64,000 bases of DNA from Lingula anatina (Eukaryota; Animalia; Brachiopoda), in contig CM120642.1 of assembly GCA_051362555.1 (NCBI GenBank), positions 10,540,001 through 10,604,000 of the forward strand. Reading direction: 5' to 3'. This document shows, piece by piece, positions 3,324-32,500 of this stretch; within the stretch, counting starts at the first letter, position 1, and each line of letters starts with the position of its first letter. The notes beneath the pieces are model-generated. The model made no database searches, was not told the DNA's origin, and saw only the letters and a list, made by a program, of their open reading frames with translations. The translations under genes and the position numbers were made by a program.

Positions 3324-3378
<55 letters not shown>

Positions 3379-7784: not shown

Positions 7785-7832
<48 letters not shown>

Positions 7833-10800
7833 TTTTTTTTTACTTAATAAGAATGAACATTTTAATGATTTTATTGACATTTAGGTTCTGAAAACATAAA
7901 CCACAACAGACTGCATTTTTGTCACACATTTAAAACAAAGATTTATTTGTAAATAAATAGTAAGTTTTAAATAGAGACTTATATAGAGTTTAGTGTTTCT
8001 CAATTTTAGTAAAGCAAGTTTTTTTTTCTTCCACGAGGACACACCCACAAAAAACAAGTCTTAAAACCACATTTTTTTCAGAAACCATAAAAATGTTTAT
8101 TTTTATTCTGCAGGATGAACCCACTGCAGGCATGGATCCTAAGACCAGAAGGAATGTATGGAAGGTGATTCAGGAAACTGTGAACAGTGGAAGATCTGTG
8201 CTTCTCACTTCACATAGGTAAGTACATGTGGACATGCAGAGTGCATGGAAGGGATGTGAGCTTTATATTTTACATGTGTTATCCTTCATAAAGGTTCTGG
8301 TTACATATGGGCACTGCTACTGATGATGATGGTGATTGTATACATATCATATGGTTACTAGTTACATTTGCTGTGATGATTGATTTATCTATAACGAGAA
8401 AGAACAACCTTAGTTTAATATGTGAAGAGTCATAAACATATGAACAATTTTTCAGTATGGCTGAGTGTGAAGCACTTTGCAGCCGACTGGCCATAATGGT
8501 GAATGGGAGTTTCAGGTGTCTGGGCAGTCCACAGCATATAAAGAACAAGTAAGTGATTTTCTCTTAACATGGCTTTTTTGCATTTTTTATTGGGAATGCA
8601 ATTAGATGATAAGCTTGATAAAGAGTTCTTCAATCCCTAAGTTTTGTGGTCTGTTATAAGTCATTCTCTCAAAAAAACCTCAATTGTACAGAAAATCAAA
8701 CTTTCACAATGAGGTATAAGATTAAACTACAAAAATAAATTGAATTTTTATCAGGACTACAGAGCAGTCAATACCTAAAAAAGACATAAAACTTTTTAAT
8801 TATACTTTCTGAAGTTCCAATTCATGAACAGTAAAATTCAAATTTGTTCTCTATTTCTCAAACTAGAAATAATTGAAATTATTTGTAGTCAATAGAATTT
8901 TAGTAATAAACATGATGAAATTTGCAATGTTGTATCTTTTCATGTTTGTATGATTGCTTTTGCCATCAAAATATTTTTTGTAGAAAAAAAAAACAAATTA
9001 CTCAATTACTCACATTTGTGGCCAAATGTAAAGAGACAAATAAGGATATTCCCACAAGTAACGTTGAACAAAATAATTCAGTCATGTCTGTTTACTAAAG
9101 TGTAATCACAAGTTGGGCTCATTGTTAGGTTTGGAAGTGGGTACACCGTGAACTTGAGGATGAAGAGTGATGGTTCAGATGTGAAGGCTGTGAGAGCTGC
9201 TCTAACCAGCAGATACCCAGGAGTTGTGATTAAGGTGATCACAATAAGATCAATCTTGTTTAAGTCATCAAGTACATGTATCTGTTATTTTCTGGAGATT
9301 TGATTAACTTTAACAAATATTTCAGACGTCACTCAAATTGTTTGCTTTGTTCCTTTGTGACAGAACTTGAAAAAGAGATTTGCCTTCCTGATTTGCCAAA
9401 TTAAGTGTGACCAACTACATTTTAATGGAAGTGACAAAGGCACAAACTAAGAAAGATTTGAGTGATTTTTTAGTTTTTGCTCATTTAAGCAAAGCTCAGT
9501 CATGTTTTAGCTTGTATGAAATGTCTTCTACCTGTGTTTTAATCGAATTCTCACCATGTTTTTTTGTCATTGAAGAATTGTTCAGTTGCAGGTTCTGTGT
9601 GAATGAATTTGCTTTAAAGTATATTTTCATTGTATTAATTTACTGTCTCAACATCTGGTAGGATTTAGAAGCTGACTAGCTAGAATATGTTTTTAACTGA
9701 AGGGTATATGCTTTATTGCATTATCATAATGAATTGTCGCCTGCCTTCAGGACCAGCATTACAACACAGTAGTGGTCAGCATCCCAGGACAAAGCACCAA
9801 GCTGTCAGACATCTTTGGTTTCCTGGAGAATGCCAAAGAAGACTTGGGGATAGAATATTATGGTGTTTCACAGACGTCACTGGATCAGGTAGGGGTCATC
9901 CTGTTTTTCCTTCTTTGTGTTAGGCGTTTAAGTTTACATTTGTTGGTATATTTGCATGTTGCACAGTAAAGGTGTAGCCAAAATCATTAACAACATTTTC
10001 CTTTTTTGACAAAGTATTGTTATTTTGAATTTCACAAACGTGATTTTGTTTATCATGCTTGCACAGGTGTGATTGTTATAATATTATGATAAAATTAATG
10101 CCACACTTCAATTTTGACAGGTATTCATCAACTTTGCCAAAAAACAACATGATGGCATCACAGATGAAATGGGAGATGAAGAAAATGAACAGGGCAGTAC
10201 TTCAGGCCAATGTCAAGACCCAGAAAATAAATTTGTTGATTATAACAATGCTCCTCCACCAAAGTCACACATTTTGTATGAACAGAATATAGTGCAGGTG
10301 GCACCAGATTACTTGGAATTGGCAGCAGAGAAAGCCAAGACAAAACCTCTTCCTCCTCTGAACATCAGCCCTGGGAAACTCCCTCTGATAAATGAGAGTT
10401 TTCTAAAGAATGGCTTAACTGATCCAGTGGTTGTTGCAACTGATGAAAACTTACCATCCAAACAGCAAACAGGGTCACAGATATCTGTGAAATCCAAGTC
10501 CTCCAACGAAACAGCTTCCAGCTCTGGCGTAAGCAGGAAACAATCTGAAGTTGCGGCTGATGAGGTTCTGACCACCAAGCAACTGACAGAGTCACAAGTG
10601 TCTGTGAAACCGGGTTCTTCCAAGCCTGCATCAGCCAGCAGCAGCACCAGACCACAGTCTAGTGATTCAGCTCATTTCAAACAAAATGGATCTCAACTAT
10701 CCGTCCAATCAGGATCCTCCAAATTGTCCAGGCCAGGGTCTGGGATGGTGACAACTGGATTGGGCAGCCAAAGTACTCTAGTTCCAGTGGAATCTGTTTC

Positions 10801-10960
10801 AGAGCAAACAACCATCCCCGAACTGCATACATCTGCATCAGTTGAAAAGCAGAAGACGGAAATTTCTGTGGCGACTGCTAGAGGGGTCAACCCTGGTTTA
10901 CCCACCACTCCTGCACCAGTGGAACCCTTGGAAGCAGACTTAACTGGAACAAACTTGTAA
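1..10960 (+). CDS. ABC transporter subfamily A (ABCA1/ABCA12-like lipid exporter), 3' half; gene begins upstream of the window
   Basis: Exons joined by GT-AG: 1-137, 276-490, 813-912, 1207-1474, 1877-1972, 2517-2747, 3085-3260, 3692-3752, 3971-4148, 4497-4612, 4867-5005, 5128-5381, 5663-5780, 6408-6479, 6705-6808, 7189-7303, 7512-7646, 8114-8217, 8456-8548, 9129-9234, 9751-9888, 10121-10960. Motifs: end of NBD1 ([12 protein letters not shown]...GSPLFLK), [16 protein letters not shown]2 start [26 protein letters not shown]2 Walker [58 protein letters not shown]. The family is clear; the exact orthologue is not. Confidence 0.95.
3326..3374. repeat. (CA)n microsatellite in ABCA intron
   Basis: Uninterrupted ACACAC run directly visible. 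Confidence 0.95.
5798..6048. mobile_element. Degenerate palindromic MITE (PIF/Harbinger-like) in ABCA intron
   Basis: Inverted arms GGGTGCATTCACAATAAATCTA...GGGACTC..GCTGAATGCAATCA versus TGATTGCATTCAGCAAGAGTCCC...TAGATTCATTGTGAATGCAGGC; TAT on both flanks as a possible 3-bp TSD. Confidence 0.65.
7787..7831. repeat. (AC)n microsatellite
   Basis: Directly visible. Confidence 0.95.
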
Positions 10961-12429: not shown

Positions 12430-15400
12430 AATTAATCGTCCGCTAATGTTTCATTATTTCCATTAACGTCGTACTATTCGTAGTATGGATGACAAAATCG
12501 AAAAAATCTCTCCAGTGAAAGTCAACGCTGTGACCAGTGAGATTTTTATATCTGAGGATAAACTGAAAACGACAGTCTCGGTTCGCAGTTTTCTTTTCAT
12601 ATCTATGTATTCTACCGGGTTATGTATCGTTTGAGAATTTTTATGCCAACCGCGGACGGATATATAGGCCTATGGTACTTGGCGGTTTTTCAGATTCCAA
12701 TTTGTCCCCGCAAACAGACAATTCTTTCCAGTCTTACAAAGACGAACTTGCAGTTATGACTTTGTAAGTGTTTCTTGTCTACATAAAAATCGGACAACAT
12801 GATGCGACTCAGTGGTTTGGTAAACCCGTGTTTTAAATTTATTAAATTTCTTGCCCTCCAGTCCGCTGGGGCGCGGTGCCACAAAGTACCTATAATATTA
12901 ATATAATGTGATTAATTTATTCATTCGGTATTTTCACTACCTGACTGATGTACGAACATCTCCAACTGCCGTTAGCTAGTGACCTTCAGACCACGGCTCG
13001 ACAGCTGTTGAAGTAGCAAGATGGGAAATAAAAAATACATATTACAAGATAATGTCGGAATCACGACTTGGCATCTATCACGTCGTTTGATCACGCCATT
13101 TGTTATTTTGTGATAAGGTGAAATTAAACCAAAACTGTGAAACTGTTGATGTGCACCTGTTTCAATTACTTCTAGTCTACATATTTGATCAAATTTAATT
13201 TACAACACAGGGAAGACTATTCTCACTGAATCCCTCATCGGCGCTTACGATTTTGATGAAGAAATCCCCCCAGTAGGTAGGCCTTTTTTTTAAATCAGTG
13301 TTGTCTCGGACATTTGCAATTTCTGATAGGTGCATCTCCTTCAGTAAAATTAATATGTACGTAAAGGTAAGGTAGTTTTTTTTTCTCTATTTCTGGTTGA
13401 ATAATGAAAAAATTACCTTCTTGTAAGTTATTAAAATGTCTTATGCGCGATCGTTTTATATGGAAACGATCGATACAGCATACAGATTCTTACAATGCGT
13501 GCGCGGATTCGGCTATAAATGGTTATCTATTTCTTTCTTTTTATTATATGTAGTAGACGCCAGGCAAAATTGATAGCTAGCTAAGATGGTTAACTAGCAG
13601 CAACTCTGTAAACGGGTTAGTCGACAAAATTTAAATTTGTTTCTGCTTTACCAGGGGTGTAGGCCTATATTAACCATGTGCACTTTTTCGTAGAAGAGAT
13701 TTTTGTCATGGTCAGAGACAAATCTGTGAATGTCTAGAGAAAAATCAATATTTGATCCTGGTAGAAAGTAGGCCTATAAGGTTTGATAAGCAGTATGTCT
13801 CTCCATTGTTATTTAGAGGGAAGAAATCTCACTAGTGTGGGTAGTTTTAGAACATAAAAATAACAGTAGGCCCCTAGAAGTAGGCTTGGTTTTAGAACAT
13901 ACAAATAACAATAAAGCTTTTCCTTGGGTTAATAGTAAATATCTTTCACATACAAAACCAGAACCCAATGTCTTTTTTTTTTCATTTATAAAAATAGGTG
14001 AAAAAATCTTGATTCCCTCAAAATTATTTTCGCACAGTCGCATTCGTTATGATAAACCAACCTATGAATTTTTTAAAATTAAGGTAATTTTTTATTAAGT
14101 GCTCCTTATAGACGGATCTGACATTAATTTATAAGTATTTCACGAAAGAAAAAAACTAGAACATAGAATTATAGGCTTATATTTCTTAAAACAAATTATT
14201 TAATTTGGGTAGGGTAGTGGCGCGTTCAATCTCGTGAGGGGTGTCGGCCGGACGGGGATAAGTGGCGTGATCGATCTGGTGAGGAGTGTTGGCTGGATGT
14301 TATTGGCCAGAAACTCTGATATTAGTTAGTTACACTTAGAACGATCTTCATTCACTCACACGATACTCAGAAGATACACGCCGTTCTAGTTCTTCAATAG
14401 GAAGACGCAACTCCGTCAACCGTAGGAGTTAAAGTAAGCGTTTTTATTTTATTGATAAGTTAGTGATTTTTAAGGTTGTTTTAATGTTAAGTTATAAGAT
14501 TTAGTTCGTAAACATACCTTAAATTGCTGCCGCGACGATCTTTGATAGCGTTCAGTGTCATTTAACGATGCAAATTTACTTAGGGTGATTTCGTGTTTGT
14601 TTTCGTTTGCGCAATGTGTCACTACAATTTATCTGGCGTATTTCATTGTATAAACCCTCTGTAAAAGCTATATTCGATCGTAGAACGGCTATTTAGCTTA
14701 GCGCAAACTTAGGCCTACTGTATTAGCGACGTGATGCAAGTGATATCGTTTAGAGTTTAGGTGTCCGCAAACTTATTGTTGGTTCCCGTTTTCAGGTCAT
14801 TGCGAATCTGTAGCACGTTCTCAGTACTGCTTCGCACGTTTTAGCCGGTGACACCACTTCTTGTAAGAATTTATATTTGTTTATCTAGTACGGTAATTGC
14901 TGTTGAATTTAGTACAGATAGGCCTACATGTAGTATTGTGAAATGGTATTGCATTTAAGCTTTAGTACGAAAAACGTTCTTTAAAATTGCTCACTTTTAT
15001 TACCGTACCTACAGTTAAGTTTTATAGAGCATTCTTAATATCATCACGACTGTGTTACCGTAGTTAGCCTTCAGTTTTTAGACGAAATAGTTTTGTAAAG
15101 TTTACTTTGTTATTGTCTTTGTTTATTTTTTTCTTATTAAAGTTTACCGCTATTACATCTCAGCAAGACGTGTTGTGTTGTATGGTAGGCTGTCTGATGA
15201 CGATAGTCAACGGTCAGATAGGAAGCTGTTTTTCACACGTGTCGGGCCGTAGGCCTACGTGCTTACGTCAGCCTTACGCGAGCAGGTAACCTCATGTCAG
15301 ATTCAGCTGGCGGTTTTTCACACTTGTGGAGTTCGCTGCCGCGTTCCAGGCAATTCGATTATTGATAAAAATATATCAGGTTGCGACCAGCTGGCATGGT

Positions 15401-15520
15401 TTTTCACACCAGTAGTAGTACGTCAATATAGCTTTAAAACAAACAACTTGCAGCCTCAGCGCAGTTGTGGAGTATCTTGCAGTTGTCACCTGTTGGCAGA
15501 CAAGATTGCCACCTAGCGGA
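12430..15520 (+). promoter_or_regulatory. CpG-rich promoter/5' regulatory region of the recombinase-domain zinc-finger gene
   Basis: Marked rise in CpG relative to gene bodies. A 45-bp direct repeat at 14216/14261, reverse CCAAT (ATTGG) near 14303, TTAGTT initiator-like motif near 14325, splice donor GTAAGC at 14434, and several candidate first exons. Confidence 0.6.
12485..13276 (+). CDS. Tentative upstream coding exons (12485-12536, 13211-13276) of the recombinase-domain zinc-finger gene
   Basis: ATG 12485 gives MDDKIEKISPVKVNAVT and ends phase 1 at GTGAGA. 13211-13276 is a 66-nt phase 1-1 exon (KTILTESLIGAYDFDEEIPPV) with CAG/GTAGGC boundaries. Both join in frame to the phase-1 acceptor at 16222. 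Confidence 0.4.
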
Positions 15521-16232
15521 GAAAAGAGGCAAGCAAAATTATGTGTTGTAATGGAGTTATTGCATTTTAAATTGATTAACCTTTGTTTAATGTCAACTAA
15601 TGTTGTATAATTAAGGAGACAGCAAATGGACATTTGAAAAACCTTGACCAATCCGTCAAGTTCAGCAAGGTTGGTGAAACTGGAGTAGGTTTGACAGCGT
15701 GAACGGCTCTGAGCATTTGTTCACCTCTAGGGTCTACACATGATTATCTTTCTAGCTAGGTATATGAAAAACACATTTGGCTGCGTATTTGAGAACGGAG
15801 AAGCCATTTGAATTTTAGATCTAGCTCATTTAAATCAAAAATTTATTCAGTGTTACGTGACACCATGTTTGGACATGCAGGGGCTGGGGGGGCCGGGGGG
15901 GGGGGGGGGGCAAGAAACATCCGAATTGTTCTCGTCAGTGAGGCCATAGAAGCAGAGAAACTACTTCTATGGTGAAGCTTACCATTTTCAGGGTAATGTA
16001 CGCACAGACAGAAAATCATGTATTGTGGGAACGTTACTAATGAAGCCACTGGTAGTACTAGTAGATATCAGCCTGTAGTTTTGAACAAGCACCTCGTTGA
16101 CGAGTGAACATGCAGTTGTCAAAAACATAAGACCCAAGTGTGGTAGGTCGACTGCAGTAGATGACAACCATATTTACACACTGAGTGCCTCTTGATTTTT
16201 AAATTCTATTTTATTTGACAGAAGAAAAAAGA

Positions 16233-19200
16233 ATGTTGAAGAGTTTGCTGACCAGTGAATCCCAATACCCTGACATACATGTAGGAGTAACTGTAGTCAA
16301 AACAGGACATGAAGTCAGTTACAGCACAACAAAAAATACAAAGTGGGGAGTGAGACGATTCAGAGAGTGGGCCTCAGAGTATAATGATGAGATCACACGC
16401 CCAGATCTGGCCACGATAGAACCAGCACAGTTAAATATCCTGCTGAAAACCTTTTGGGAAAATGTCACAGGAAAAGATGCCCAAGATTTGAACCCATCAA
16501 CTTTGATCAGCATAAGGGCTGCTTTGTCTCGTCACCTCCATGATCTGAAGAGGAATATTGATATAATCAGAGATGTCGATTTTGTGTCATCCAATGCTGC
16601 ATTCACCGCTAGATGTAAACAGTATTACGTCAAAGTTGGACATGAAAAGTTGAAACAGAAGAGGCCTATTGGGAGGACTGATTTGGCCACACTGGCAGCC
16701 TATTTCAGGGATTTGTCAACTCCAAAACGTCTGCAGCAATATGTGTGGTTTAACGTATGTTACTTTTTTGGCAGCAAAGCTCGAGAGGAATTCAGAGCCA
16801 TGACAAAAAATACATTTATTGTGTGCCGAAATGACCAAGGTAAAAAATAGTTTTTATTTCATGACTTTAAAAGATTTTTGTTTTTTGTTTCTCTGCATTA
16901 TTTTCGGTACAAAGTATAGAATGGACAATTAAAGTTCAATAATATACAAAAATATCCACATATACAATCTTTTGTGATTTTCATAGGTCTGAAATATGCA
17001 TATTTTTTTCACAGCATTTGAGATGCAGAGTATAGAATAGATAAATTACATTACTGAATAATATAAGAAAGTATTCATATGATCATGATAACAACCTTTT
17101 GTGATTTTCATAGGTTTGAAATATGTAGCTTGCTGTAAGATGGAGGAGAAACAACCCCATAAAGGGGAATCCTCTTCACAGGACCAGGCCTACCCTTTAT
17201 TGAGAATGTACTCCACTGGTGGAGCTATGGACCCTGTGGAAGCTTTTGAGACCTATGTCTCCAGACTGAGTGCTGGTTGTGATAGCCTGTGGCAGGTGCC
17301 AAAGATCAGGCAGCATGAGCTAGTTGCTGCGCGACCATGGTACAAAATGGAAAGCATTGGGAAGAACGTTCTTTGTGAGTCACTAATTTGTTTAATTAAA
17401 CTAATATACGAGTCCTGTTATAATAAGGGTTATTTGTTAGTATCCTCCACCCCTCCAGAACATCTTATCATTATGTGAATTTGAAAAAAAAAGGAAAAAT
17501 GAGATTATTAATTTAATTGAAAGAAAAAACGAATATCTACATTTTAATAGTTTAGGGTAAATATTTGCCTTAGAAATTCCAATTAAATCACTTATTCCAG
17601 CTGCAATGATGACAAGGTTATCTGAAGATGCTGGTCTTGATGAAATATATACCACTCAGTGTGTACATGCCACAGCCATAGCAACCCTCTACAAAAATGG
17701 AATTGAGACTGATACCATTCGCTCGATGTCTCAGCTCAAAAATGAGAGCAGTGCTGAGCGAATTGTTGAAAGTTCTGCTAAAGATCTGGGTAGAGAGTGT
17801 AGCAGAATTCTGTCTGCATCTCTAGCAGGGACAGAAAAAGGTATACGTAAGTATTGGCTCATCCTGTTATAAATTAGTGTTAATGTTTATAATCTTCATG
17901 CAGTAAACAAATCTAGATTTGCAGGCTGTTGTTATTATGTGTTCATTAGTGAATGAAGTTCATCTATTAATCTATATGTAAAGTAAATGTTATAAATGAG
18001 TAGAGCTATACTGAATGCTCAGCTGTTTTGCATTTTGATACTATATGCTTTGAATTGTATTTGATTCTGAGATTTTTACATTCGCATCCTATGTGGCTCA
18101 AGAAAACCCATATATATATATATATATCTTTCTTTCTTTCAGGAGATCCACATACGTCCTCAGGCTCCCTCTCTCAGGCATCAGCAGACCATCTCCCTGA
18201 CCAACTGAACAATGCTGCTCTGGCTCTTGGACATGTTTCCAATTATCAGTCATTTCTTCAGGAGAATGATCATTCCATGTCTGAGGATGATTTTCCGGAG
18301 GAGGCCTTTGATAATGGTAGTCTGTTATGTTATTGATTTAATAATCAAAATTTTATGGGACTGTTTTGAAAACTTAGGATTTTTTGTCTGGATCCAAGAA
18401 TTTGGATTGTAACAGCATATCTTTTTAGATTAAAATATGGTTGAAATCTTTCTTTAAAATGTTACTGAATCAATGATGAAAAGTGATAGAAGGTATATCT
18501 AGTTGGGAAATGTCTATCTTAAAAACATGTAGAAAGTTTTGAAACTGACTTTGAATAATTTTTTATAAATGCGGAGGTTCTTTATTTTAATTAGAGTTTA
18601 TGTATATTTTTTTCAGACTCTTTTATTGAAGAAGATCCCCAAAATGATGGTGTATCTTCTTCGTTTATTGAATGGCTGCACGTGCAAGGCTTTACAGAGT
18701 CTACAGTCCATACCCTATTAGACAGCGGTTTTAAGACAAAAGAATCTCTAAATCTTTTGGATGAAGAATCTTTCAAAGAGCTTGGCATCTCCCTCCAACA
18801 AAGGCTTTTGCTGAAAAGTACAATCCAAAAGACTGTATCACAATATAAGTCATACAACAAGTTGCCCTCAAGCGGTAATGATGTTGTCAGTACGAGGACT
18901 ACTGAGGAAATGGAAGTGGTGTCATCAACACTACAGGGAACCAATGGTGTTGTCACCACAGGGGAAAATGTCTCTTTGAACACAGACCCTGGGCCGTACA
19001 AACAGCATGCTCTGCAAGGTTAGTTATGGGCAGTAGTTTTCAGACAGTGTGTGGATGTCTCATAAAAATAGTCACTGAATTTTGAGGGCCAAGGGTTGCT
19101 GTGACAATGTATCTGTCTTTAAAACTTGTTAAAATGGCTGGACGTTTGGACTGGCATGACTTTTTGATAGAAAAGAAGAATCTGGCATGTTTGTACTTTA

Positions 19201-21992
19201 AATTATTAGTTTTCAGAGGGGAGTATCAAAATAAATAATCAGTGAATATTGTTAATCTTGAGTTGTACAATGAACCATAATAACAGTCACTTATTCCCCC
19301 AAAAAATTATATATTATATTTCTATAATTTCAGTATTTCAGACACTTCTGAAAATGATACCTGACAGCAGAGAGGGATGTACTTCAAAGTCTCAAGAGAG
19401 CACTGTTGATTTGATGCACAGCATGAGGAGGTGGAAGGCTCTAAAAGATCAGTTAGCTCTGCACGGTCCAGATTCTGATGCTGCTCTGGCAGAGAAGCTG
19501 CTTGACTGTTGGTAAGTCCATATTACCTTCGTAAGACTTTTATGATTCTTATATTATTTTGTTATTTGTCATAGACTGATGAAATGTTAAATAAACAACT
19601 GGCAATACAGAAACAAATTATTCAATTATATTATTCTTATATTTTGTTTCATCTCATAAACTGGTGAAATGTTAACATGTATAGCAATACAGAAACAAGT
19701 TTTCAGTCCAAATGTTTTTTAAATAGCTGCACTCTAACCATTTTAAGGAGAGAGAACCATGCTGATGTTGGCAAAAAAGGCCAGGCTCCTGTAGAGTTGC
19801 CCCATTCACAGCACTTTACATCTGGTAACTAGTGTTTAAATGCATTGGTATGGTTGTGAATAAAATTCAGCAATTATGTTATGCTTTTTTTGCTTAAAAG
19901 AGAAAAATTACACATAATTGTTAAATTAACTTTTAGTAAAATGATGATTTAAGAGATGATTTAAATGTACGCACACTGGTATATGTCTCTACAAGTTACC
20001 GTCACCAGAGCGTGCTTGCACTGCGAAAGCAGGAGGTAAAGTTTCCTATGGACACAATTCTTACAATTCAGATCTTTAAAATATTGTAGTTGTTTTGATT
20101 TACTGTTTGATGTGGGACTTTCAGCTAGGTCAAGTTAGGAAATATTCAGTCACTTTTTTCTTTTCACAGGCACAGGCTTAAAGTCCCAGGAAAACGGCAC
20201 AAAATGTATCTCTCCGGAGAATCCCGATTTTGAACCACAAAGCAGTAGCAATGTAGATGAACAAGCAAGGGTCACATCACTGAATAAGGGAACTGACAAA
20301 CAAAAGGATGACTTGGGAAGATGTGTGAGCAAAGTGGAAGTGGGCAATTCAATGGATCAAGAGCCATCAACTCTTGTCAAAGGACAGGGGGATTTATGCA
20401 ATATAAATATCAAGCCAGACCCGGATGGAGACCAGATTGTAATAAACCACCAGCTTATTAGAATGCCATTTCCAAACCTGCAAACCTGTGATAGCATGGT
20501 GTCTGCTACAAATAGTAATAGTGTAAAGACAGATGGCACTAGTTGTTTGAAAGAGGATACCAATGCTCAGGGGGATGGAAAAGATAAGAAGTTCCGAGTG
20601 GATGTTGTTCAAGGTGCTTCTGATCCACAACCTGTGTTTTTAATCAAGAATGTTCACTCTCTTGCAACTTCCACACCAGGTTCTAATGCAGAGAAGAGTG
20701 CAGAAAAATCCAAAGTCACCATCAAAAATTCTTGCAAATGCCGGTATTGTGTCCAGGTATTCAGCGGAGAGGAGGATTGTCAAATCCATGAGAGAACTCT
20801 CTGTGACAAAAATCCTGAAAGGATGAAAAGTGACAGAAAAGCAGGACAGAATATCACTCGGAGTAATGAAAAGCTATTAAGTTGTCGATACTGCTTTAAG
20901 CAGTTTAGAGATCAAGCAATCCTGAAATCACACGAAAAAATTCACACAACCAGTTGCAAGACCTACAGGTGCCAGTACTGCCCTAAAACATTTACTACAA
21001 AGACCAGTTGTATTCTTCATGAGTTGATACATCCAGAAGCACCCAGAAAATATTATGCTTGCCGTTTTTGTCAGAAAAAGTTTGTTAATAGACTTAGTTG
21101 TAGAAAACACGAAAGACACCATTCCCCAGCCACTGTCCATCTGTGTCAATACTGCAACAAATCTTTTCATAAGAAAGAGGCTTACCTTCGCCATGAGAGA
21201 ACTCATACGGAGGAGCATCCATACAAGTGCACATTTTGTGATGAGAGATTTGCCAAGAAGTTTCTTTGTACAAGACACGAGAGCATTCATAAGAGTTTTC
21301 AGTGCAAATTTTGCTCAAGGACATTTCCAACTGTTTACACATATTCTGCGCACATGAAAAAACACAAGGTCTCTAAGCAACACCACCAGTCAGAAAATCC
21401 TGTATCCATACAGAGCGAGCAGAGCCCCAGCATGGATCAGGAGTCGATGATTTTTACACACAATCACTTAGATGACCATTTCAAATGCCAGTTCTGTGGT
21501 TTTATTTTCTACAGCAAGGAAAAACACGAATTACACGAGCTAGTAGTCCACAGAGGCAAAGAGCCGTTTAAATGTCAGTTTTGTGACAAGATGTTTGCAC
21601 AGAGGGAAAGCTATTTAGAGCATGAAATAATACACACAGGTGTTCAACCTTACAAATGTCGTTTCTGTGCAAGGGCATTTGGTGATGAACAAGACTGTAT
21701 CTTACATGAGCGAATACACCGTGTTGACAAGCCGTTTAAATGCAAGTACTGTGGAAAATCCTTTGTAGTGGAGGAACTGTGCACTAGACATGAGGCAACA
21801 CACCTGGCCAGCAAACATTACAAATGTCGGTACTGTAATCTTTTATTCACAGGAAAACAGTTCTGTCTCTCCCATGAGAGGTCTCACACAGGATTAAACC
21901 GTGTTGTTCACACCTGTTTATACTGTGACAAAACTTTCTCTGATAAAAAAGCTTGCAGAGCTCATCAGAGAACGCACGAAACGTGGCGATGA
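16233..21992 (+). CDS. Domesticated Crypton-like tyrosine recombinase (DUF3504-like, catalytically substituted) - SAM-like - 13x zinc-finger protein
   Basis: Exons 16222/16233-16839, 17114-17374, 17601-17840, 18143-18316, 18617-19018, 19334-19511, 19748-19824, 20170-21992 join in one open frame (3762 nt from ATG 16233, 1253 aa). DUF3504/CryptonA-like motifs: TKNTKWGVRRFREW, LNILLKTFW, STLISIRAALSRHL, IDIIRDVDFVSSN, TPKRLQQYVWFNVCYFFG, DPVEAFETYVSRL, PWYKMESIGKN, MMTRLSEDAGLDEIYT. SAM-like segment FIEWLHVQGF...FKELGISLQQRLLLK. The last exon has 12 C2H2 plus 1 C2HC finger. Confidence 0.88.
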
Positions 21993-22378
21993 AAGAATCT
22001 TTAGTGAAACGATCTCAAAAGGTATGAAGAATTTTCTGAAATGTGGCAGTGAATTACTCTGCTCTCATTGTTAGTTACTCCTAATTTTTCTTTTCTTTTA
22101 TGTTAACTCTTTTCTCTGTGAGGAGATTTAGACATACAAAAGTTATGTGGACATGTGCTGTATTGTCAACATAAATTCCAGTTCCAGTTCACTTACGTAA
22201 TTTCAAAGAGACAAAAGTGTCATTGGAGCTTTAGCCTCAAAGTATCTTTATTTTAGTTGTATTAACTTAAATATGCTGAAGTTGTAATTTAAAACTTTTT
22301 TTCTTTAGTTTCTTTTCAAGCTTATAAGATTCCATACTAAGTAAACTCTGATTTCTTCTTCAGACGTTACACAATTTA

Positions 22379-22615
22379 GGCTGCGATCACATGTAAAATC
22401 TATTTTCTTAAAATCTATTTGTGGCATCTTGTGATCACAGTCTATGCCCTGAATACCCCGCGGCGTAATTACTGGCAGCGCCGAGAATTATAGCTTTGGA
22501 AGTAACTGGCTCGCACTGCCCGTAATTACACCGTGGGGCATTCAGGGCACAGACCGTGATCACAAGATACCGCAAATAGATTTTTAGAAAATGGATTTTT
22601 CATGTGAACGGAGCC
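22379..22615. mobile_element. Palindromic MITE, PIF/Harbinger (Tourist-like), TTA TSD
   Basis: About 100-bp imperfect inverted arms (GGCTGCGATCACATGTAAAATCTATTTTC... versus ...GAAAATGGATTTTTCATGTGAACGGAGCC), with TTA at 22376-22378 and 22616-22618. Confidence 0.85.
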
Positions 22616-23347
22616 TTAAAGTATAATTTAAGGGGAAAATAGTTGACAGAGAGTGATTCTAAATAAAAAAAATTAAGAAAATACTGTTGAATTTCATCTT
22701 GACAAAAGATCATCTTGTTTAAAAGAAATACAAGAAAATTGTCCCAATGACTATTATCGTTTTTATTTACATAGGAGCACCATTAATCAATGAATTTTGA
22801 CTTAACATAATGTTACTTCTGAATAAAATATAAACACTAATTTTGAAATAGATGTTACATGTAATTCAAATATAATATGGTAACCATAAAAATTGAGTTC
22901 ATTAAAAATTGCACAAGTCAATATGTCTTGCACTTCAATAAATCCTTGTGGCCAGGATTAATTATACATTACATCATGGTCACCAAATTTAATAGCATTG
23001 ACAATATTATCATTGATATGGCATCAGAATGTTTGTGACTAGACAATGTGTATATGTAATGGAATGGAGACATTCATTTACATCAACAACTGGCAACAAA
23101 ACAAATGCAATGTAAAGGCATTACGTGTAATATGCAGTTAGATTGTAACATGAGGAATGCTTATAATAACAAAATCTGGAAGGCAATCAAAATTTGTTTT
23201 TGTTCTGAAAGCCATTCAAGTACCAAAAGAGCAATATATTCAGATTGCTGGCAGATTGAAAAAAACACTAGAATGGCATTCAAGCTACATGTATCTGGTG
23301 CTTCAGATTCCTCTGGTTTAAATTTATTTATGTTGACATGTGCATTG

Positions 23348-23630: not shown

Positions 23631-26600
23631 TCATAAGTCATCTACACCCTCAAAGAAAAGTTGAATGGTGAATTCTTCCCTAAAAACATCCCATGTTTTC
23701 TCTTTGTGTGGATTGTCAATCTCGTACCTGAGTAATTTTAATCTGAAAAGCAAAAATTAAGATTTGACAGATATCAACTTCTTATATTAGAGTTAGTTTC
23801 ATGAGCAAGATACAAAAGTTCTAGGTTCCTTGTTGAAAAACTGAGTCTTTCTTTTGCTATCGATATCAACAGAAAAAGTCCGGAGAAAGATTAAACACTA
23901 TGACCCAGAAGAACTCTTGTGTATTTTTTTCTTATATGTCACCTACATTTATTTTTCTCACCAAGGTTCTGTGATAAGATAATATGTTTTATTTTAATAG
24001 CATAATAAAATTTTGTTTTAAAAAAATTCACAACAAAAGTATCTAATTAACTTACACTTTAAAAGCTATAAAATATGTGATGAGTTTACTGTTAAACTGA
24101 CAACAATGTTTTCCTTAAAGCCAAAACATTTGTCTGCTATTAGTTCCACATGCTGAGAGATGCAATCTTTCCATGAAAGACAAAATATATATTTTGCTGA
24201 CCATCCATATAATATTCACAATAACATGACATGCGCCTCCTCACCTGTTATCCTCTACAAAGGATGTATTAAACCAGAAATAAAATGGACAGTTATCATA
24301 GCCAATTGGTATTTTCTGAAAAAGAAAACCAATTACTTTTGTTTTACATCCAACAGCTACTAGAAGTAGTCTATGTAAGAGAGATGCTGATGTAGTAAAA
24401 ATAAATACTTTTCTATTAATCATTTTATCTGAGACACTATAAGAATACCTATTGAAGAACTGTAAAGGAAAATGAGGCATATTCACAAATATCAGAGCAA
24501 AGACTTTTTTCTTTGATACATTGTTAAAAAAAAAACAGATTTTCACCCACTATCATCACCAGTCAGTTTTTTGACATCTTTGCTATTTTGCTTGTTATAT
24601 GTTTTTCATAAACATTAATTCTAAAAATGTTGGATTATGTGCAAATTTCTATCAATACAAGGTTGCATGTTTTCAAGTACTGAAGCATCAGCACTCAACA
24701 TCTTGAAAAGTGTCACCTATGTTTCATTGTAATAAAAAGATAATTCTAAAATCATAAACTTAAGGTTCATTCATTTGCTATTTCATTTGTAAAAGACATC
24801 TAAATTATTTTGAAACAAATCAATCATTTGCATAAGTTTTTCATCCTGCCATCATTTAAAATATATATCTGTGCATTTAAAATTCTTTAGTAAAGATATT
24901 TAACCTTGTCCCTATACTTACAGCAGTAGAGGTAAATCTGACTTTGATGTCACCAACCAGAATAGGAGAATCTTCAAGCTCTATTGAAATGAAATCTTCC
25001 TCTTGCACATGTGTGAGCTGAAATATAACAAATAATATGATACTCATCTCTTGCTTCTTCTCCACAAAAACGCCATACACAAAATATATGATTGTCCTAC
25101 TTTATATGTTTCAGATGACAAAATAAAAAGAATATAGGTTAAATTCAGTGAACTTTGTTTGGAACTTACCCAAACACTTATACAGTAAGTGTTCCACCTA
25201 TGGCGTTTCCACAGGTTTTTCAAAATGAAATAGCAAATTCAGCCCACCAAGCAAACACGTCACATTCGGATCCTGTGGCCAGCATGTTGTTACTACATTA
25301 TAACGTCATATATGGATTAACCATGTGGTACCAACGTGACGTGTTTGCTGGTCATTTCCCTCACAGACATGCAGGAAAAAAAACCCTCCAAGTACATTTA
25401 TTGCTGAGTCCCCCCAAATTGTGGCAAATTTTCTTTGCAACAGGATGGCCAACACTATTCCAAGCTCCCACTTTTTGATATGATAGTTTTGAAACTACTT
25501 AAAGAATTGAAAACAAAGCCAAATTGAAAACTTGAGAAATATATACAAGAATAAAATTCAAATCTTGATTGCAAACTGACAGAAAATACTGTCTGATCCA
25601 AGGAAAAGACTGGTCAATAAACATTAGTTATTTAAAACTAGAGGATCAGAGAGGCGATACCGCCTCCGAATATTGTACCACCAGCTGGAGCAAGCGCATT
25701 CATATAGACCCCCACATATACAAAATAAGGAACACAGCCACCAGTCTTGTGCTTGACAAGCTGTAAAAATGCAATCAACAAGAATTTTCAAAATATGCAA
25801 AAAATATATATATTACTAAAAATGGTACAATCAAAGTTAATTTCATCGCAAGGTAGGTCAAAGGTCAATTCCAAGGTCACAGTAAATTGCCAGTATATGA
25901 CTTCCTATTCAACTTCAATAGTAACTATGGGCCTATCTCTGCCAGGTTTGGAGTTAAAAGAGAAAGAAATTAGCAGAGTTCAGTTCATGATAATAAGTAG
26001 GTCAAAGGTCAATTTCAAGGTCACACTTAGATTGCCAGTATATGACTTCCTATTCACGTTCAATAGTAACTATGGACCTATCTCTGCCAGTTTTGGAGAT
26101 AAAGGGGAAGCAAACTATGCAAAGTTCAGTTCATGGTGAAAAGTAGGTCAAAGGTCAATTTTAAGGTCACATTTAGATTGCCAGTATATGACTTCCTATT
26201 CAACTTCAATAGTAACTATGGACCTATCTCTGCCAGTTTTGGAGATAAAAGGGAAGCAAAATTTGCAAAGTTCAGTTCATGGTGAAAAGTAGGTCAAAGG
26301 TCAATTTTAAGGTCACATTTAGATTGCCAGTATATGACTTCCTATTCAAGTTCAATAGAAACTATGGACCTATCTCTGCCAGTTTTGGAGATAAAAGGAA
26401 GCAAAATTTGCAAAGTTCAGTTCATGGTGAAAAGTAGGTCAAAGGTCAATTTTAAGGTCACATTTAGATTGCCAGTATATGACTTCCTATTCAACTTCAA
26501 TAGTAACTATGGACCTATCTCTGCCAGTTTTGGAGATAAAAGGGAAGCAAAATTTGCAAAGTTCAGTTCATGGTAAAAAGTAGGTCAAAGGTCAATTTTA

Positions 26601-29496
26601 AGGTCACATTTAGATTGCCAGTATATGACTTCCTATTCAAGTTCAATAGAAACTATGGACCTATCTCTGCCAGTTTTGGAGATAAAAAGGAAGCAAAATT
26701 TGCAAAGTTCAGTTCATGGTGAAAAGTAGGTCAAAGGTCAATTTTAAGGTCACATTTAGATTCAAGATTAGATTCATAGAGTTCAAAATTTATTATCCAT
26801 TACCGTACTGCACATTTTGCTTTCACCACCAATATGTACTTTTTGATACAGCGTAACTCGAAAACCGTATGGAATACAAAAAAACGGAGACGACCCCCAG
26901 TGTTGGGCTTTACATGCTCTACAAAATGCAAAAAAGAATGGGTGTCTAGCATTAACGGTTCCCGAATTAGAGACAGTTTTCAGTTTCGATATCTTATGGC
27001 CGCTACTCCCGTGAAAATGCACCGATTGACCCCAAATTCACGGAGATGAAAGATGACCTGAAGGGTAACACTTTCCATTAATATTATTAGTTAAGTCTGT
27101 GTGGTGTCTGAATAAGACCGCAAATAATTTTTTTTTCGGCAAAAATTTTGTTTTTTTGAAAATTTTGGCCCGTTTGACCTTAAAATAAAGGTCAAAGGTC
27201 AAATCCAAGGGCATATTTGAAATCTACACATATGACTTTTGGAAAGCTGTCTGTAGAAATTTTTCCCATAATTCCTTCTGTAGGGGAGACAATTAGCATT
27301 TAATTTTGCCATTTTTGGACAAGGGTGCATTGCAATGAGTGCCACACCTAGACCCCAATACCGACAAAGCCCAAATTTTACGTGGAACGAGTTGAGATTA
27401 TAGGTGACCTAAATCCAAGAGATGGGTATGCAGGGACGGATCCAGAGTTATTTTCTGACAGTCTTCCAAATTATCTTTGTTGATCCATCCTCCATTTTCT
27501 GACCGTCTTCCGACAGAAAAAATTAGATACCCATCAATGTAAACTTGAAAATCTGACCGTCTTCTGGAAGACCCAGAAGACGGCCTAAATCCGCCCCTGG
27601 GTATGGAGGCCCTTACCGTCTAGGAGGAGAAGCGGTAACGGTGACTTGGCGGCGGAGCCGCAGGAGCCGGCGGAGCCGCAGGAGCCGGCGGAACATACGG
27701 GTCGGGACTAAAACCATGTGTACCGCCAGCGCCTACGCTGGTGGTACAATAATACAACCAAATAACAATTATGTCTTTTATCTATTAAAGACTCACTTTG
27801 CAATTTGTGTTGGTTCCAAACTGGCAGTTAAATCTCTCCACCTTGTCTTTGAACAGCATCATACTGAGGTCGGAGCCATCTCCATTTCCCACACCTAAAT
27901 TATGATGAGAAAATACCATTTTAATAATATCATTGCCTTCTTTGGGTTACCAGCATAAGTATACTGCATCTTCCAATAAAAAATGTTGGACTACATTAAT
28001 TTTACAATCATTTTGATCGTCATCTGTTCTTTTGCAATTAAAAATAACCCAATACTCTCAAGTTTGAAGCCTAAAAACAATTTCAAACACAAGTGAATTG
28101 ACTTTGCCTTCCTTGATAATTTTCAAAGATTTCCAATTTATGCTGTTTGTATTGTAAATTTGTAATTCTGTTGAAAAAAAAGTGACATCTTCAACACAAT
28201 GGAAAAGGTATTTATATCTCTTTGAATTCTAATATATTTTATTTTAATCTATAGATAAAAAATTTAATTCTTTAAAAACTGATAACTGTTTTTTATGTAA
28301 TCTCAATTATAATAAATATCTACCAGTTATTCCAGTGATTTTGATCTGCGTCATTCTTAATCTCTTGTCAGGAGGGAGCTCTTCATTAAAATTCTTCTTG
28401 ATTTTTTCAAAATATCCAACATAGCGGCTCTGTAAGAATTCATCATATCAAACTTTGGAATCTTCATATCAATATATTACAAGTTGGAATTATCTATCTC
28501 TGTGATATCTACTGTACTTCATCTGTAATCTCAGGCCTGTAGTGAGGGGAGGGGGGGGGGGTTAAATATACCACCCTTTTTGCCAGGAAAAGGTCCAAAA
28601 AAGGAAAAGGGTCAAAATTGATCTAGGTATACACAGTTCAGTTTTCATGGTATAATGCCTATTTTTTTCATAAACTCTATCTCCCCTTTGAAATTGATAT
28701 CACTACGTATTATTAAATAATGGTAATTAAATTTGTCACTCACACTGAAGTATTGAAAAGATAGAGGCATCATTTTCAAAATATCTAGATACAATCACTA
28801 AGTATTATCACTATAAATACAAGATGAATGGAAAATGAAAGAAAAGTGAGTTTTCAATGTATCTTACCTGACTTGGTGTTTCAACACCTTGGAATTTACT
28901 TCCTACACTTTGATCAGTCCGTCGCCTTCCAAAATAATCAAGACTTTCCTGGAAAATAATTTAAATTAATCTCAAGTTGTATTTACACCATAACAAGACA
29001 TCTGCTTAACTTCAACATGCATCATGGTCTTTCTGTTGTCTGATATTTTGGATTGACATTTGGTCTGTAAGACTGGGTTCCCATACCTAGATTGATCTAA
29101 CATCTATCCATCTCTGAAGGGTTTCTCGCTAAACTGCTTTCAGCTTAAGCGATCTAACATCTATCCATCTCTGAAGGGTTTCTCGCTTAACTGCTTTCAG
29201 CTTAAGCGGCTTAGATGTCTGGCTCCCCTACTGAAGCTGCTAAACGATAATTGATTCCCCTCTAACAGCTTCAGTAGGCGTGACAGACATTTAAGCCGCT
29301 GAAGTTGGTGTAATATAGCAAGAATCGCCTCAGAAATAGATTGATCCACAATTAGTACGACAGGGTCTGGGAATGGTCCCTAATGGTCTTGGTCTGAAGG
29401 AAACCCTGTATAATAACAATACTGGAAATGTATTTTTTAAATCAAAACTTGAATCAAAATAATGGCATACAAACATAATGACACTGAACATTTTCT

Positions 29497-29555
<59 letters not shown>

Positions 29556-32500
29556 CTTGAGAGACCGAGAGAGAGAAGGGTCATGGCGAGAGTCTTGCGA
29601 TATTGAGATTGCCCAATGGCATAAAAATACCCAATAAATGCACAAAACTGTCTGTTAATGTGTATCAACTCTCCTGATGATAATGATAACACTCGCACTC
29701 TCTCTTCTTCACCACTGATGAAAAAAGTCAGCCTCATTGGTCAAAATATAAAGTATGCTTACGTGAGCCTGTTCAAACAAGCCACAGTGCACCAGCCATG
29801 TACAGATCATGGTGCCTGTCCGTCCCTTGCCTCCCTTACAATGCACTGCTATGATGTTGTTTTGATCTTCATTCATCCAAGCTTCTACACTCTTAGCAAA
29901 GGTTATCATATCCCTGAAGTGTAAAAAAACTTACGTGTATATACACATATTTCAAACATTATGAGCTTAATTCATTCACAAAGTTTTTGTTTTGCTCTAT
30001 TACTAATAACTTTTTCAAGTCATTTTTTTTTCAATTTCAGTGGTTCAGACTAAACATGCTCTTCTTTTGTGTTTTAGGAATAAAAATATTGTAGCCCAAA
30101 ATGTTTATCATTTACTTGGGAATTAGACTGACAATAATTATACTCTGGCTATAATCAATTCTACAACAGTTATCAAACAATCCAATAAGACCACCCCTCT
30201 ACCAATTTTATGAAATTATGAAATTTTATGAAATAAATAATGGTTTTTGAATTTTATATAAGCTGTCTTTTAGTAAAATATCTTAATATATCATACTTGA
30301 GTTCTGGTACATTGTGGTCATCAATATAGACCCTCTCCACTCTGTTGTGGAATAATGTCTCATCATACCCTCTCTCACCTAAAAATAATAAATAACCGAA
30401 TGAATGAATGAATGAATGAACATTTGTCCATTTTCATTAATTTTTGTCCAATGCTAAGCAATGTGTTAATATTAATGGCATTATTGGTCAACAACAACTT
30501 TTTTCAACTTGTAACTCTTTCAGCTTGACATCTTCATTAATGCACCTTGGTAGTTTAACCAAAAATGAGATGGTTTAGAATTTTTAAGTTTAACAAGCCA
30601 AACATCCTAAATGAAAAAAAAATCTTTTTTTTTAATTCTCCAATTTTACATTATATTTCAATTATAACATGCTTGTAAGTTACGCTGAACACCTACTATC
30701 TCACTTCTCATACTTACTGCAGAGGTTATATATTTTGTAATGGTCCTTGTGCTTGGTGTCAAAAAATCTTGCAACTTCCTGAAAGCAGTTGGTGTAATTG
30801 TTTTAGACTAAACAATTAAAGCATATATCCTACAGGTAAATGAAAATGCTTTAAAGTCTTATTTTCATGTCTAAATATCCTGTCTAATATTTCTCATTTC
30901 CAGACATAAAAACAATGAAACCTCTCAAATAAAAGTTAATCTGGAGTCTACTTGATACTGACCTATCTGAGATTAAGAATTTAAATGAATCACAGTTCAT
31001 TTAGAAGTAAGTTATTTAATTAGAAACTGTACAAGTTTGAACAATTTGCGCACAGGAGAAAAAATGCTTTTTTTTCTGGAAGAAAATTACATTTTGGTGT
31101 CAGGATTTATCCCAAATAGAATACCTTTAATTTCAACTTCACAACTTACAATACTTAAGCTGGGTGCTACTAGAAAGTGCTAGTGCATATTTGGCAGGCC
31201 AACTTGCCAAATTTGGCTAACATTTTATTTTGGCAGTGATTTAAATGTAGCTGTTGCTCCTTTTTTTTTTTTAAATGATTAAGGATTTGGTGTCTTAGGG
31301 ATTCAGAATCAAACAGCACACCAGTCTAGAAATGTCATATAATGTATGTTTCTGTAAAAATACTTTGTTAATTTGATTCAAATACACTTATAAATTACTA
31401 TATAATTTTTGAGCCAATGTGTACAAACTCACCTGGATTGGGTTTCTATAAACTGACATGATTCCAGTAGAAGGAAATGACATTGCAATCACCCTTTCTG
31501 TAATATAAAATAATAATACAGGAGACTGGGGTAGCGCTAGCAATTTTTTTCGCTTAGCCAAATCACCACTTTTTTGTCAATTTGTTATCAAAATGGTTAT
31601 AATTTGACTAAAACAAGTCAAATCAAGCCCTTTTTCTTAGCCAATTGAAGAGAGTTTTAGCATTTGGCTAAATTGGCGAGTGTTAGCGCTATCCAAGGGA
31701 GACATTTACAAGGCATCAATCTCAGTAATTAGAGTACTGATAAAACAAAAACATTTACATTTATCATTGTGCAGTGTTCCACAGAGAATATAAAAATATA
31801 AAAGGTAAAGTAATAGATTTATTGATAAAATTAACTTATTTTGGGTTAGAAGACAACATCCAAAATTAACATGAAAGCACTCCATTATTTTATATACCAG
31901 AATGTGCCTCAGTGTACAAACAAAGAATGTGTAACTCTGGGTGCTATCAGTAAACAACAGCCACATGAGTCAATGACCCCATATGCCAGGGAAAGATCTC
32001 TATGCAAGTGTGAGGTAAAAAAGGGTGTCTACTTCCAGTGTCTGAATGAAAACTAATTCTGAACAATAAGCTATAGATAGTAGGCCATTAGCCTGAGTTA
32101 TAGTTCAGAGGAGTATTGAATATCTACTCTACAAATGGACAGCTAAGTAAAAATGCACATGTAAATGTTGTCCAAAAATTCACAGTACAGAAATGTAGAA
32201 AATTAGTGAATATCGAGAAAAATATCTTTGAAAATGTTGTAAAAAAAACTTCTCTCTGTGACCGTGGAGGAGGGTATGAATGTCCCCACAGACAACATGC
32301 CCCATATCATTCATTATTTGCTTTAATTGGAATGACCTTCATCTTGATCTTGATATGTAAATTTATATATGATATACATATTTCACCATATGTACAGGTA
32401 TCATAAATTTGAAAACATTATCTAACTGGGGTTTGCCCTCACCTGAAATACAATGGCACTGCCTGATAACACAGTTGGTCAAATCAAAATAATATGGAAA

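What the first reader, a model, noticed from the sequence alone, without database searches (positions are those of the whole stretch)
16233..21992. Candidate new system: dead recombinase + SAM + ZNF653/692-like motif + 13 zinc fingers in one 1253-aa protein
Seen: all eight exons join in frame with canonical splice sites. The introns within and after the YR domain and flanking the SAM exon are all phase 1, as expected for exon shuffling. Known: the Crypton domestications I recall pair DUF3504 with MYM fingers, BTB or Q-rich regions, not with a long C2H2 array; transposase-ZF fusions are a recurrent source of new transcription factors. Inference: an independent invertebrate domestication producing a sequence-specific, oligomerising factor. 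It could bridge or loop DNA via the YR fold, or repress Crypton/DIRS-type elements as a dominant negative. Novelty is judged from memory only.
Basis: partly seen in the sequence, partly recalled or inferred. Interest (0 to 1): 0.85.

Follow-up and report, generated by a model that had tools for sequence, protein, structure and literature searches.

The report
Dead transposon recombinase fused to zinc-fingers
A spliced, expressed brachiopod gene joins a recombinase-type domain that has lost all six catalytic residues to a SAM domain and 13 zinc fingers; it is likely a gene regulator built from a captured Crypton transposon, a new combination of a known kind of domestication.

Summary
The gene is real. 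Eight coding exons give 1255 aa (not 1253). RNA reads show six of seven junctions directly and the YR-to-linker junction through 4 clipped reads. RefSeq already holds the same fusion as an uncharacterized Lingula anatina protein (18 differences). Residues 28-364 are predicted to fold like Cre (Z 18.8) and sit among intact CryptonA recombinases, but keep 0 of 6 catalytic residues, against 6 of 6 in 96 of 128 relatives. Two introns were likely gained. SAM is supported by the predicted structure; the ZNF653/692-like motif is unconfirmed. Best reading: a domesticated-Crypton transcription factor whose fingers pick DNA sites and whose dead YR and SAM act as protein-contact modules. The YR's net charge (+4) ties the lowest of 102 relatives, which weakens DNA looping or dominant-negative repression. 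The closest functional parallel is Zincore, where QRICH1's dead YR domain serves zinc-finger factors in trans. DUF3504+C2H2 gene models also occur in two molluscs and a catfish, and a single origin is rejected. I found no paper on this architecture. The scan noted another Crypton capture by a zinc-finger gene on other DNA (e1-9524735). Verdict: new variant of a known kind; function untested.

The parts
14000..15500 (.). CpG-rich stretch upstream, likely the promoter region (inferred)
   Evidence: CpG observed/expected 1.05-1.52 against 0.40 for the whole window
15506..15528 (+). 3' end of an upstream non-coding exon (GC donor at 15529), spliced to 16222; its start was not mapped
   Evidence: loose-end consensus of 8 X1 reads at 16220 matches 15506-15526
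15638..15669 (+). 3' end of an alternative upstream non-coding exon (GT donor at 15670), spliced to 16222
   Evidence: loose-end consensus of 8 X3 reads matches 15638-15667
16233..16839 (+). Coding exon 1 (aa 1-202; acceptor 16222, ATG 16233): YR core-binding domain and start of the catalytic domain; R182 replaced by K at 16776-16778
   Evidence: PF25561 QRICH1 domain E 3e-5, below cutoff
17114..17374 (+). Coding exon 2 (aa 203-289): YR catalytic domain; K216 replaced by Q
   Evidence: RNA joints J1 and J2
17601..17846 (+). Coding exon 3 (aa 290-371): YR C-terminal part; H309Q, R312H, H335L, Y344I
18143..18316 (+). Coding exon 4 (aa 372-429): acidic linker, predicted disordered
   Evidence: pLDDT under 50 for 375-441; net charge -15; J4 reads
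18617..19018 (+). Coding exon 5 (aa 430-563), phase 1 on both sides: SAM domain aa 444-505 (18658-18843)
   Evidence: Pfam SAM_2 20.0 bits against cutoff 20.5, E 8e-4; predicted five-helix domain matches ASK3 SAM 6v0m, Z 8.6, rmsd 2.4, 66 aligned
19334..19511 (+).
   Evidence: J5 and J6 reads; single-sequence model pLDDT 66; best Z 4.0; Atlas 0.84 to unnamed chordate clusters, lead only
19748..19824 (+). Coding exon 7 (aa 623-648)
   Evidence: J6 and J7 reads
20170..21992 (+). Coding exon 8 (aa 649-1255, stop 21990-21992): spacer, then 13 zinc fingers (20739-21977): 1 C2HC-type, 6 C2H2, a 40-aa gap, 6 C2H2
   Evidence: J7 reads; helix position +4 is C in 8 of 13 and L in 1 of 13

Best explanation
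This is a spliced, expressed host gene whose N-terminal third is a tyrosine-recombinase domain lacking all six catalytic residues, likely captured from a CryptonA transposon, and whose product likely works as a transcription factor in which the 13 zinc fingers would choose DNA sites while the dead recombinase and the SAM domain would recruit partners or other copies of the protein. Shown: exon structure, expression, loss of the catalytic residues, position among intact CryptonA recombinases in the tree. Predicted: Cre-like fold and SAM fold. Inferred: a Crypton landed upstream of a SAM/zinc-finger gene and was spliced in through phase-1 introns, as described for KCTD1 isoform b; the active site decayed while the fold was kept; two introns were gained; the positive DNA-binding surface eroded, leaving mainly a protein-contact module like the DUF3504 of QRICH1.
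For: Splicing and expression; the same fusion in RefSeq with 18 differences in 1255 positions. Predicted fold: mean pLDDT 78 for aa 1-506, Cre Z 18.8, rmsd 4.0, 296 aligned. The profile finds XerA and QRICH1 (9HJT), both E 8e-5. All 54 of 54 relatives scanned (of 150) match DUF3504. Catalytic residues 0 of 6, against 6 of 6 in 96 of 128 full-length relatives and 0 of 6 in none of them. 48 of 66 strongly conserved columns are kept, and the 18 lost include all six catalytic ones. It sits in a 15-row clade (SH-aLRT 100) in which 10 of the 14 other rows keep all six. 78 of 80 related metagenome loci (49 clusters) are uninterrupted at both intron positions. Net charge of aa 30-350 is +4; 1 of 66 intact (median +12) and 0 of 36 degenerate relatives are as low. 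The zinc-finger part is the most constrained: 1 of 419 against 10 of 371 differences from RefSeq, p 0.004. QRICH1's DUF binds SEPHS1 in a zinc-finger coregulator complex (passages). The flanks are ordinary host genes, with a CpG-rich upstream stretch.
Against: No function was tested. J3 rests on 4 clipped reads plus RefSeq. The fingers are atypical (C or Y at helix +4 in 11 of 13), so sequence-specific DNA binding is assumed. Constraint on the YR is weak in the listed read variants (15 N, 11 S; pN/pS 0.52, p 0.08; partial lists). Some conserved basic residues remain (R95, R100, R188, K192, K336), so DNA binding by the YR is not excluded. Net charge is a crude proxy, and two of the lost charges are catalytic residues. 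The protein does not hit PF12012 itself. The two QRICH1 residues reported near SEPHS1 (L705, S736) map to A246 and A275 (read), so that surface is not visibly shared. No orthologue in another species was found (word-limited or incomplete libraries).
Confidence: 0.62

Rival explanations
1. The dead YR still grips DNA at its old Crypton target or end sequences and, with SAM-driven assembly, represses or loops those elements. This is the first reader's model and resembles KRAB-transposase fusions and the phage repressor MrpR.
For: The whole Cre-like clamp is predicted, including the C-terminal helix. R95, R100, N121 and R188 are kept. MrpR is a dead YR that binds a repeated element as a repressor (abstract). 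KRABINER binds its cognate transposons (abstract).
Against: Net charge ties the lowest among 102 relatives. Conserved basic positions 79, 153, 181, 216 and 312 are lost. The nearest Crypton found is only about 41% identical. The protein has 13 fingers that could supply specificity. Whether matching Cryptons exist in this genome could not be checked (no genome held).
Confidence: 0.2
2. The YR part is a passenger: a Crypton exonised into a working SAM/zinc-finger gene and now drifting, the function lying in a shorter YR-less form.
For: YR pN/pS of 0.52 is not significantly below neutral (p 0.08), and the YR differs from RefSeq ten times more than the fingers do. Read depth is higher on the finger exon, and 8 and 6 molecules begin at 18201 in X2 and X3. 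KCTD1 has such a YR-less isoform.
Against: Loss falls on the catalytic residues while 48 of 66 conserved columns stay. The terminal branch is 0.99 changes per site with no stop. No indels were listed in reads from four runs. Two introns were gained and are spliced. The mapped 5' exons splice into the YR exon. The depth gradient fits poly(A) 3' bias, and 18201 lies beside a masked repeat.
Confidence: 0.13
3. Two neighbouring genes (a YR gene and a SAM/zinc-finger gene) are joined only by gene prediction or rare read-through.
For: J3 was not listed as a joint, and only short reads were available.
Against: Four reads clipped at 17847 continue into exon 4; depth is 0 inside intron 3, so no YR-only 3' end is seen; the frame is open across the join; RefSeq has the same join.
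Confidence: 0.04

Closest known systems
Domesticated CryptonA/DUF3504 genes: KCTD1 isoform b, KIAA1958, WOC/ZMYM2-4, QRICH1 (Kojima and Jurka 2011, PMC3212892; parts 2-5 of 7 read)
   Same: A catalytically dead YR in a longer host protein. As in KCTD1b it is N-terminal, with host domains behind it. As in WOC/ZMYM the YR is interrupted by introns.
   Different: The partners are SAM and a C2H2 array, not BTB, MYM fingers or a Q-rich tract. The YR sits among intact Cryptons and is rejected as sister to a KCTD1-like row. All six catalytic residues are gone. The parts read describe no such fusion.
Zincore (QRICH1-SEPHS1) bound to ZFP91 on DNA, PDB 9HJT (Bianchi et al. 2025; paper not held; seen only as PDB title, citation and passages in two citing papers)
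   Same: A dead Crypton-derived YR domain works with C2H2 finger arrays. 9HJT chain H matches the model (Z 13.7, rmsd 17.7, 252 aligned; profile E 8e-5).
   Different: Zincore acts in trans through SEPHS1; here YR and fingers are one chain. The YR is not QRICH1-like in architecture, and QRICH1 L705 and S736 are not kept. That SEPHS1 clamps the fingers with arginines is recalled, not from a call.
Host-transposase fusions such as KRABINER (Cosby et al., bioRxiv 10.1101/2020.05.07.082677; abstract, outline and term search)
   Same: A transposase domain joined to host domains by splicing, giving a likely transcription factor.
   Different: There the transposase supplies DNA binding and KRAB the effector; here the roles look reversed. 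That survey covers tetrapods and has 0 occurrences of 'Crypton', 'tyrosine recombinase' or 'DUF3504' in its main text (supplements not seen).
Unpublished DUF3504+C2H2 gene models: P0014 Gigantopelta aegis (8 fingers, YR, 14 fingers), P0030 Sinanodonta woodiana (2 fingers, YR), P0058 Neoarius graeffei (YR, 6 fingers)
   Same: YR and C2H2 fingers in one predicted protein, each with a partly degenerate active site.
   Different: No SAM was found in them; finger type and order differ. A single clade is rejected (p-AU 1e-66), as is pairing with P0058 (2e-8) or P0014 (2e-9); pairing with P0030 is not rejected (0.12). Their transcripts were not checked.
MrpR of phage SPbeta (PMC10516654; abstract)
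   Same: YR fold without recombinase function, used in gene regulation (Z 10.1).
   Different: Prokaryotic, stands alone and binds DNA itself.

Membership tests
CryptonA/DUF3504-derived domain | Tyrosine-recombinase (Cre-like) fold | tested here: met
   Predicted model matches Cre at Z 18.8, rmsd 4.0, 296 aligned; Foldseek E 4e-8
CryptonA/DUF3504-derived domain | Sequence kinship to DUF3504 proteins | tested here: met
   Best phmmer hits E 7e-60; 54 of 54 scanned hits match PF12012; Atlas 0.99. The protein itself gives no PF12012 hit.
Active Crypton transposon | R-K-H-R-H-Y catalytic residues | tested here: not met
   K182, Q216, Q309, H312, L335, I344
Active Crypton transposon | Multiple dispersed copies | not testable with these tools
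   No genome held; one copy in the window; 0 reads fit two places
WOC/ZMYM2-4 | MYM (FCS) fingers with a C-terminal DUF3504 | tested here: not met
   No zf-FCS hit; the YR is N-terminal
WOC/ZMYM2-4/QRICH1 | YR falls in the WOC/ZMYM/QRICH1 clade or shares its intron sites | not tested
   No identified member was among the 52 rows of the tree
KCTD1 isoform b | C-terminal BTB domain; YR in one exon | tested here: not met
   No BTB hit; YR in three exons; sister pairing with P0081 rejected
Zincore (QRICH1-SEPHS1) | DUF3504 binds SEPHS1 | not testable with these tools
   No Lingula SEPHS1 sequence was at hand; QRICH1 L705 and S736 map to A246 and A275
SAM domain | Five-helix SAM fold | tested here: met
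   Predicted helices 444-505, pLDDT 74-79; best match ASK3 SAM, Z 8.6, rmsd 2.4, followed by many SAM chains; the same chain is the best sequence hit, E 0.01
SAM domain | Pfam gathering score | tested here: inconclusive
   SAM_2 20.0 bits against 20.5
Tandem C2H2 zinc-finger protein | Array of C-x2-C-x12-H-x3/4-H fingers with short linkers | tested here: met
   12 C2H2 plus 1 C2HC; core F in 13 of 13; seven-residue spacers at 6 of 12 gaps; Pfam E 1e-30
Tandem C2H2 zinc-finger protein | Sequence-specific DNA binding | not testable with these tools
   Needs an experiment; helix +4 is atypical
ZNF653/ZNF692-like N-terminal motif | Significant similarity to the ZNF653/692 motif | tested here: inconclusive
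   No ZNF653/692 sequence came from any tool. No significant Pfam or PDB hit, best Z 4.0, Atlas 0.84 to unnamed chordate clusters. The resemblance is recalled only.
Host-transposase fusion (Cosby type) | Transposase domain spliced in frame to host domains | tested here: met
   J3 by clipped reads only
Host-transposase fusion (Cosby type) | Binds its cognate transposon | not testable with these tools
   Needs ChIP or DAP-seq and the genome

The most novel reading that the evidence does not exclude
The protein is a one-chain counterpart of Zincore: the dead Crypton YR, alone or with a SEPHS1-like partner, locks its own finger array on DNA. Together with the independent mollusc and fish fusions and the salamander KRAB-YR proteins, this would make the Crypton YR an unrecognised effector domain that animal zinc-finger genes capture again and again.
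Probability: 0.17. Interest if true: 0.82.

Novelty: new variant of a known kind. Interest (0 to 1): 0.52.

Why it matters
The known Crypton domestications are ancient, and for most the role of the dead YR is unclear. This is a separate, RNA-supported capture in a lophotrochozoan that puts a dead YR and a C2H2 array in one chain, just as Zincore shows the two parts cooperating in trans. It offers a compact test of what a dead YR does for a finger array: DNA clamp, partner surface or nothing. It also points to repeated YR capture by zinc-finger and KRAB genes, which the tetrapod fusion preprint and the metazoan survey of transposon-derived transcription factors do not mention in their main texts. 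The limits are one gene, one genus and no function shown.

Tried and rejected
Alternative splice choices (acceptor 19342, acceptor 19751, an extra exon at 19996-20035) break the frame. Donor 17840 keeps phase 1 but is contradicted by reads and RefSeq. Word-based searches for orthologues or same-architecture proteins returned only the RefSeq protein and one ATF7IP-YR; the first and last warn that a blank is weak, and the 50% library did not list the RefSeq protein itself, so absence is not shown. None of the 150 hits matched the SAM or middle regions locally. None of the 80 metagenome loci carried a match beyond the YR; one finger-like pattern in L031 looked spurious; the 80 were the best of 277, which favours intron-free copies. 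A resemblance of the exon-6 motif to the N-terminus of P0030 was at chance level (shuffle p 0.43), and its score against P0014 fell on a zinc finger. No indexed RNA holder was listed; raw runs were laid instead. No terminal repeats around the gene were seen among the repeats shown (list truncated), and animal Cryptons are reported to lack them. Literature: DUF3504+C2H2 gave 1 paper with both terms only in a gene table; Lingula anatina+Crypton gave 2 unrelated listings; searches listed no description of this architecture (listings only, unless a paper is named as read). Most subscription papers, the Zincore paper and all supplements were not seen.


Full report
1. Observation. Joining the window's exons gives one open frame of 1255 aa from ATG 16233 to the stop at 21990-21992, with GT-AG introns of phases 1,1,1,1,1,2,1. 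Seven RNA runs were laid in two calls. In one search six junctions appear as joints, with 25 to 86 reads each over four runs. In the stranded runs X1-X3 all depth has the first mate on the minus strand, which fits a plus-strand transcript in the usual library type, and most intron bins have zero depth. The YR-to-linker junction was hidden by a masked repeat, but four clipped reads continue from 17847 into exon 4, which fixes the length at 1255, not 1253. Two upstream non-coding exons splice into 16222, below a CpG-rich stretch. A search with exon 1 found one protein, XP_013398327.1 of Lingula anatina, 'uncharacterized', 1254 aa, with 17 substitutions and one residue fewer. The window is therefore from Lingula (inferred), and the fusion is already an automatic annotation.

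2. The N-terminal domain. Pfam gives only a sub-threshold QRICH1-domain hit. phmmer with aa 1-506 found 2719 proteins at E up to 0.001, the best at 7e-60; all 54 of the top 150 that I scanned match DUF3504. The AlphaFold model from 111 sequences matches Cre at Z 18.8 and QRICH1 in the Zincore structure 9HJT. All six catalytic positions are changed: R182K, K216Q, H309Q, R312H, H335L, Y344I. Of 128 relatives covering all six, 96 keep six and none keeps zero. Of 66 columns at least 75% conserved, 48 are kept, mostly structural. In a quick tree of 52 rows (chosen from 151; LG+G4, no WOC/ZMYM rows) the domain lies on a branch of 0.99 inside a 15-row clade in which 10 of the other 14 rows have an intact active site. 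Of the 80 best related metagenome loci, 78 are uninterrupted at both intron positions; one has a frameshift there and one gave no hit. The two introns in the YR are thus likely gains after capture, with the caveat that ranking favours intron-free copies.

3. Other parts. Residues 444-505 score just under the Pfam SAM cutoff but are predicted as a five-helix domain whose best matches are SAM domains. The SAM exon is phase 1 on both sides, which fits shuffling. The exon-6 motif is predicted helical and matches nothing significant; the label 'ZNF653/692-like' is recalled and untested. The 13 fingers lie in one exon in two blocks and are unusual: Cys at helix +4 in 8 of 13 and Glu after the first His in 11 of 13, against Leu in 19 of 22 fingers of P0014. 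Against RefSeq the fingers differ at 1 of 419 positions and the YR at 10 of 371 (p 0.004). Among the read variants that were listed (partial tables) pN/pS is 0.52 for the YR (p 0.08), 0.34 for the middle and 0 for the fingers (0 N, 4 S).

4. Mechanism. It cannot be a working recombinase by the accepted catalytic set (PMC13465315, abstract and first third of Results). Kojima and Jurka name DNA binding and protein contact as the two options for dead YRs. The net charge of aa 30-350 is +4, reached by 1 of 66 intact and 0 of 36 degenerate relatives, and conserved basic positions are lost. With 13 constrained fingers present, I favour fingers for targeting and YR plus SAM for protein contacts (0.62). 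The precedent is QRICH1, whose DUF binds SEPHS1 in a zinc-finger coregulator (passages), although its reported interface residues are not kept here. DNA binding by the YR with repression of Cryptons (0.2; precedents MrpR and KRABINER), a drifting passenger (0.13) and a prediction artefact (0.04) remain.

5. Comparison and novelty. Crypton domestication is known: four animal events are described, with BTB, MYM, Q-rich or unknown partners. Transposase capture by splicing is known. Among the 150 hits, three carry C2H2 fingers (Gigantopelta, Sinanodonta, Neoarius) and two carry KRAB (Pleurodeles, Ambystoma); the AU test rejects one origin for the four finger-bearing proteins, though not a pairing with the Sinanodonta one. 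These are unverified gene models. None showed a SAM match. Ten literature searches turned up no description of this gene or of a YR-SAM-C2H2 architecture; the library lacks most subscription papers, and supplements were not read. Earlier notes of this scan hold nothing on this sequence or genome and one similar capture elsewhere.

6. Verdict. A real and well-supported gene; a new variant of a known kind; interest 0.52. It stays above ordinary because of the complete and selective loss of the active site, the RNA support and the parallel to Zincore.

Noticed in passing
proteins P0089 (Pleurodeles waltl) and P0116 (Ambystoma mexicanum): KRAB fused to a Crypton YR; P0089 keeps all six catalytic residues and P0116 four; the two are sisters (99) in the tree. 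The tetrapod fusion preprint's main text has no mention of Crypton or YR. Possibly an undescribed salamander KRAB-YR fusion; gene models only.
   Followed up: partly
proteins P0014, P0030, P0058: DUF3504+C2H2 gene models in a snail, a mussel and a catfish, from different Crypton lineages; transcripts not checked.
   Followed up: partly
proteins P0124, P0148, P0029, P0053, P0149: YR joined to BTB, MIEAP, FCS fingers or ATF7IP in other proteins; P0149 is a fish ATF7IP isoform with five of six catalytic residues.
   Followed up: no
window 20739-21977: Unusual finger type: Cys at helix +4 in 8 of 13 and Glu after the first His in 11 of 13. It may mark a lineage-specific finger family.
   Followed up: partly
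window 18201: 8 (X2) and 6 (X3) molecules begin here: either an effect of the masked repeat at 18100-18144 or an internal start giving a YR-less form.
   Followed up: no
window 15529: One of the two upstream exons uses a GC donor.
   Followed up: partly
window 15846-16186 and 22375-22619: Multi-copy repeats that attract reads from other loci; the second has 107-nt inverted arms, 86% complementary, 31 nt apart, MITE-like.
   Followed up: no
window 239-10957 (+), 24244-33974 (-), 42534-54786 (+): Neighbours: exons that look like an ABCA-type transporter and a voltage-sensing phosphatase (labels from recalled motifs), and an ANKLE2-like gene with LEM and ANKLE2_3rd hits.
   Followed up: partly
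window about 25700-26850: Tandemly repeated unit seen as recurring translations in several frames.
   Followed up: no
window 16964-16998 and 17091-17125: 35-nt duplication (94%) of the exon 2 acceptor inside intron 1; reads use the downstream copy.
   Followed up: partly
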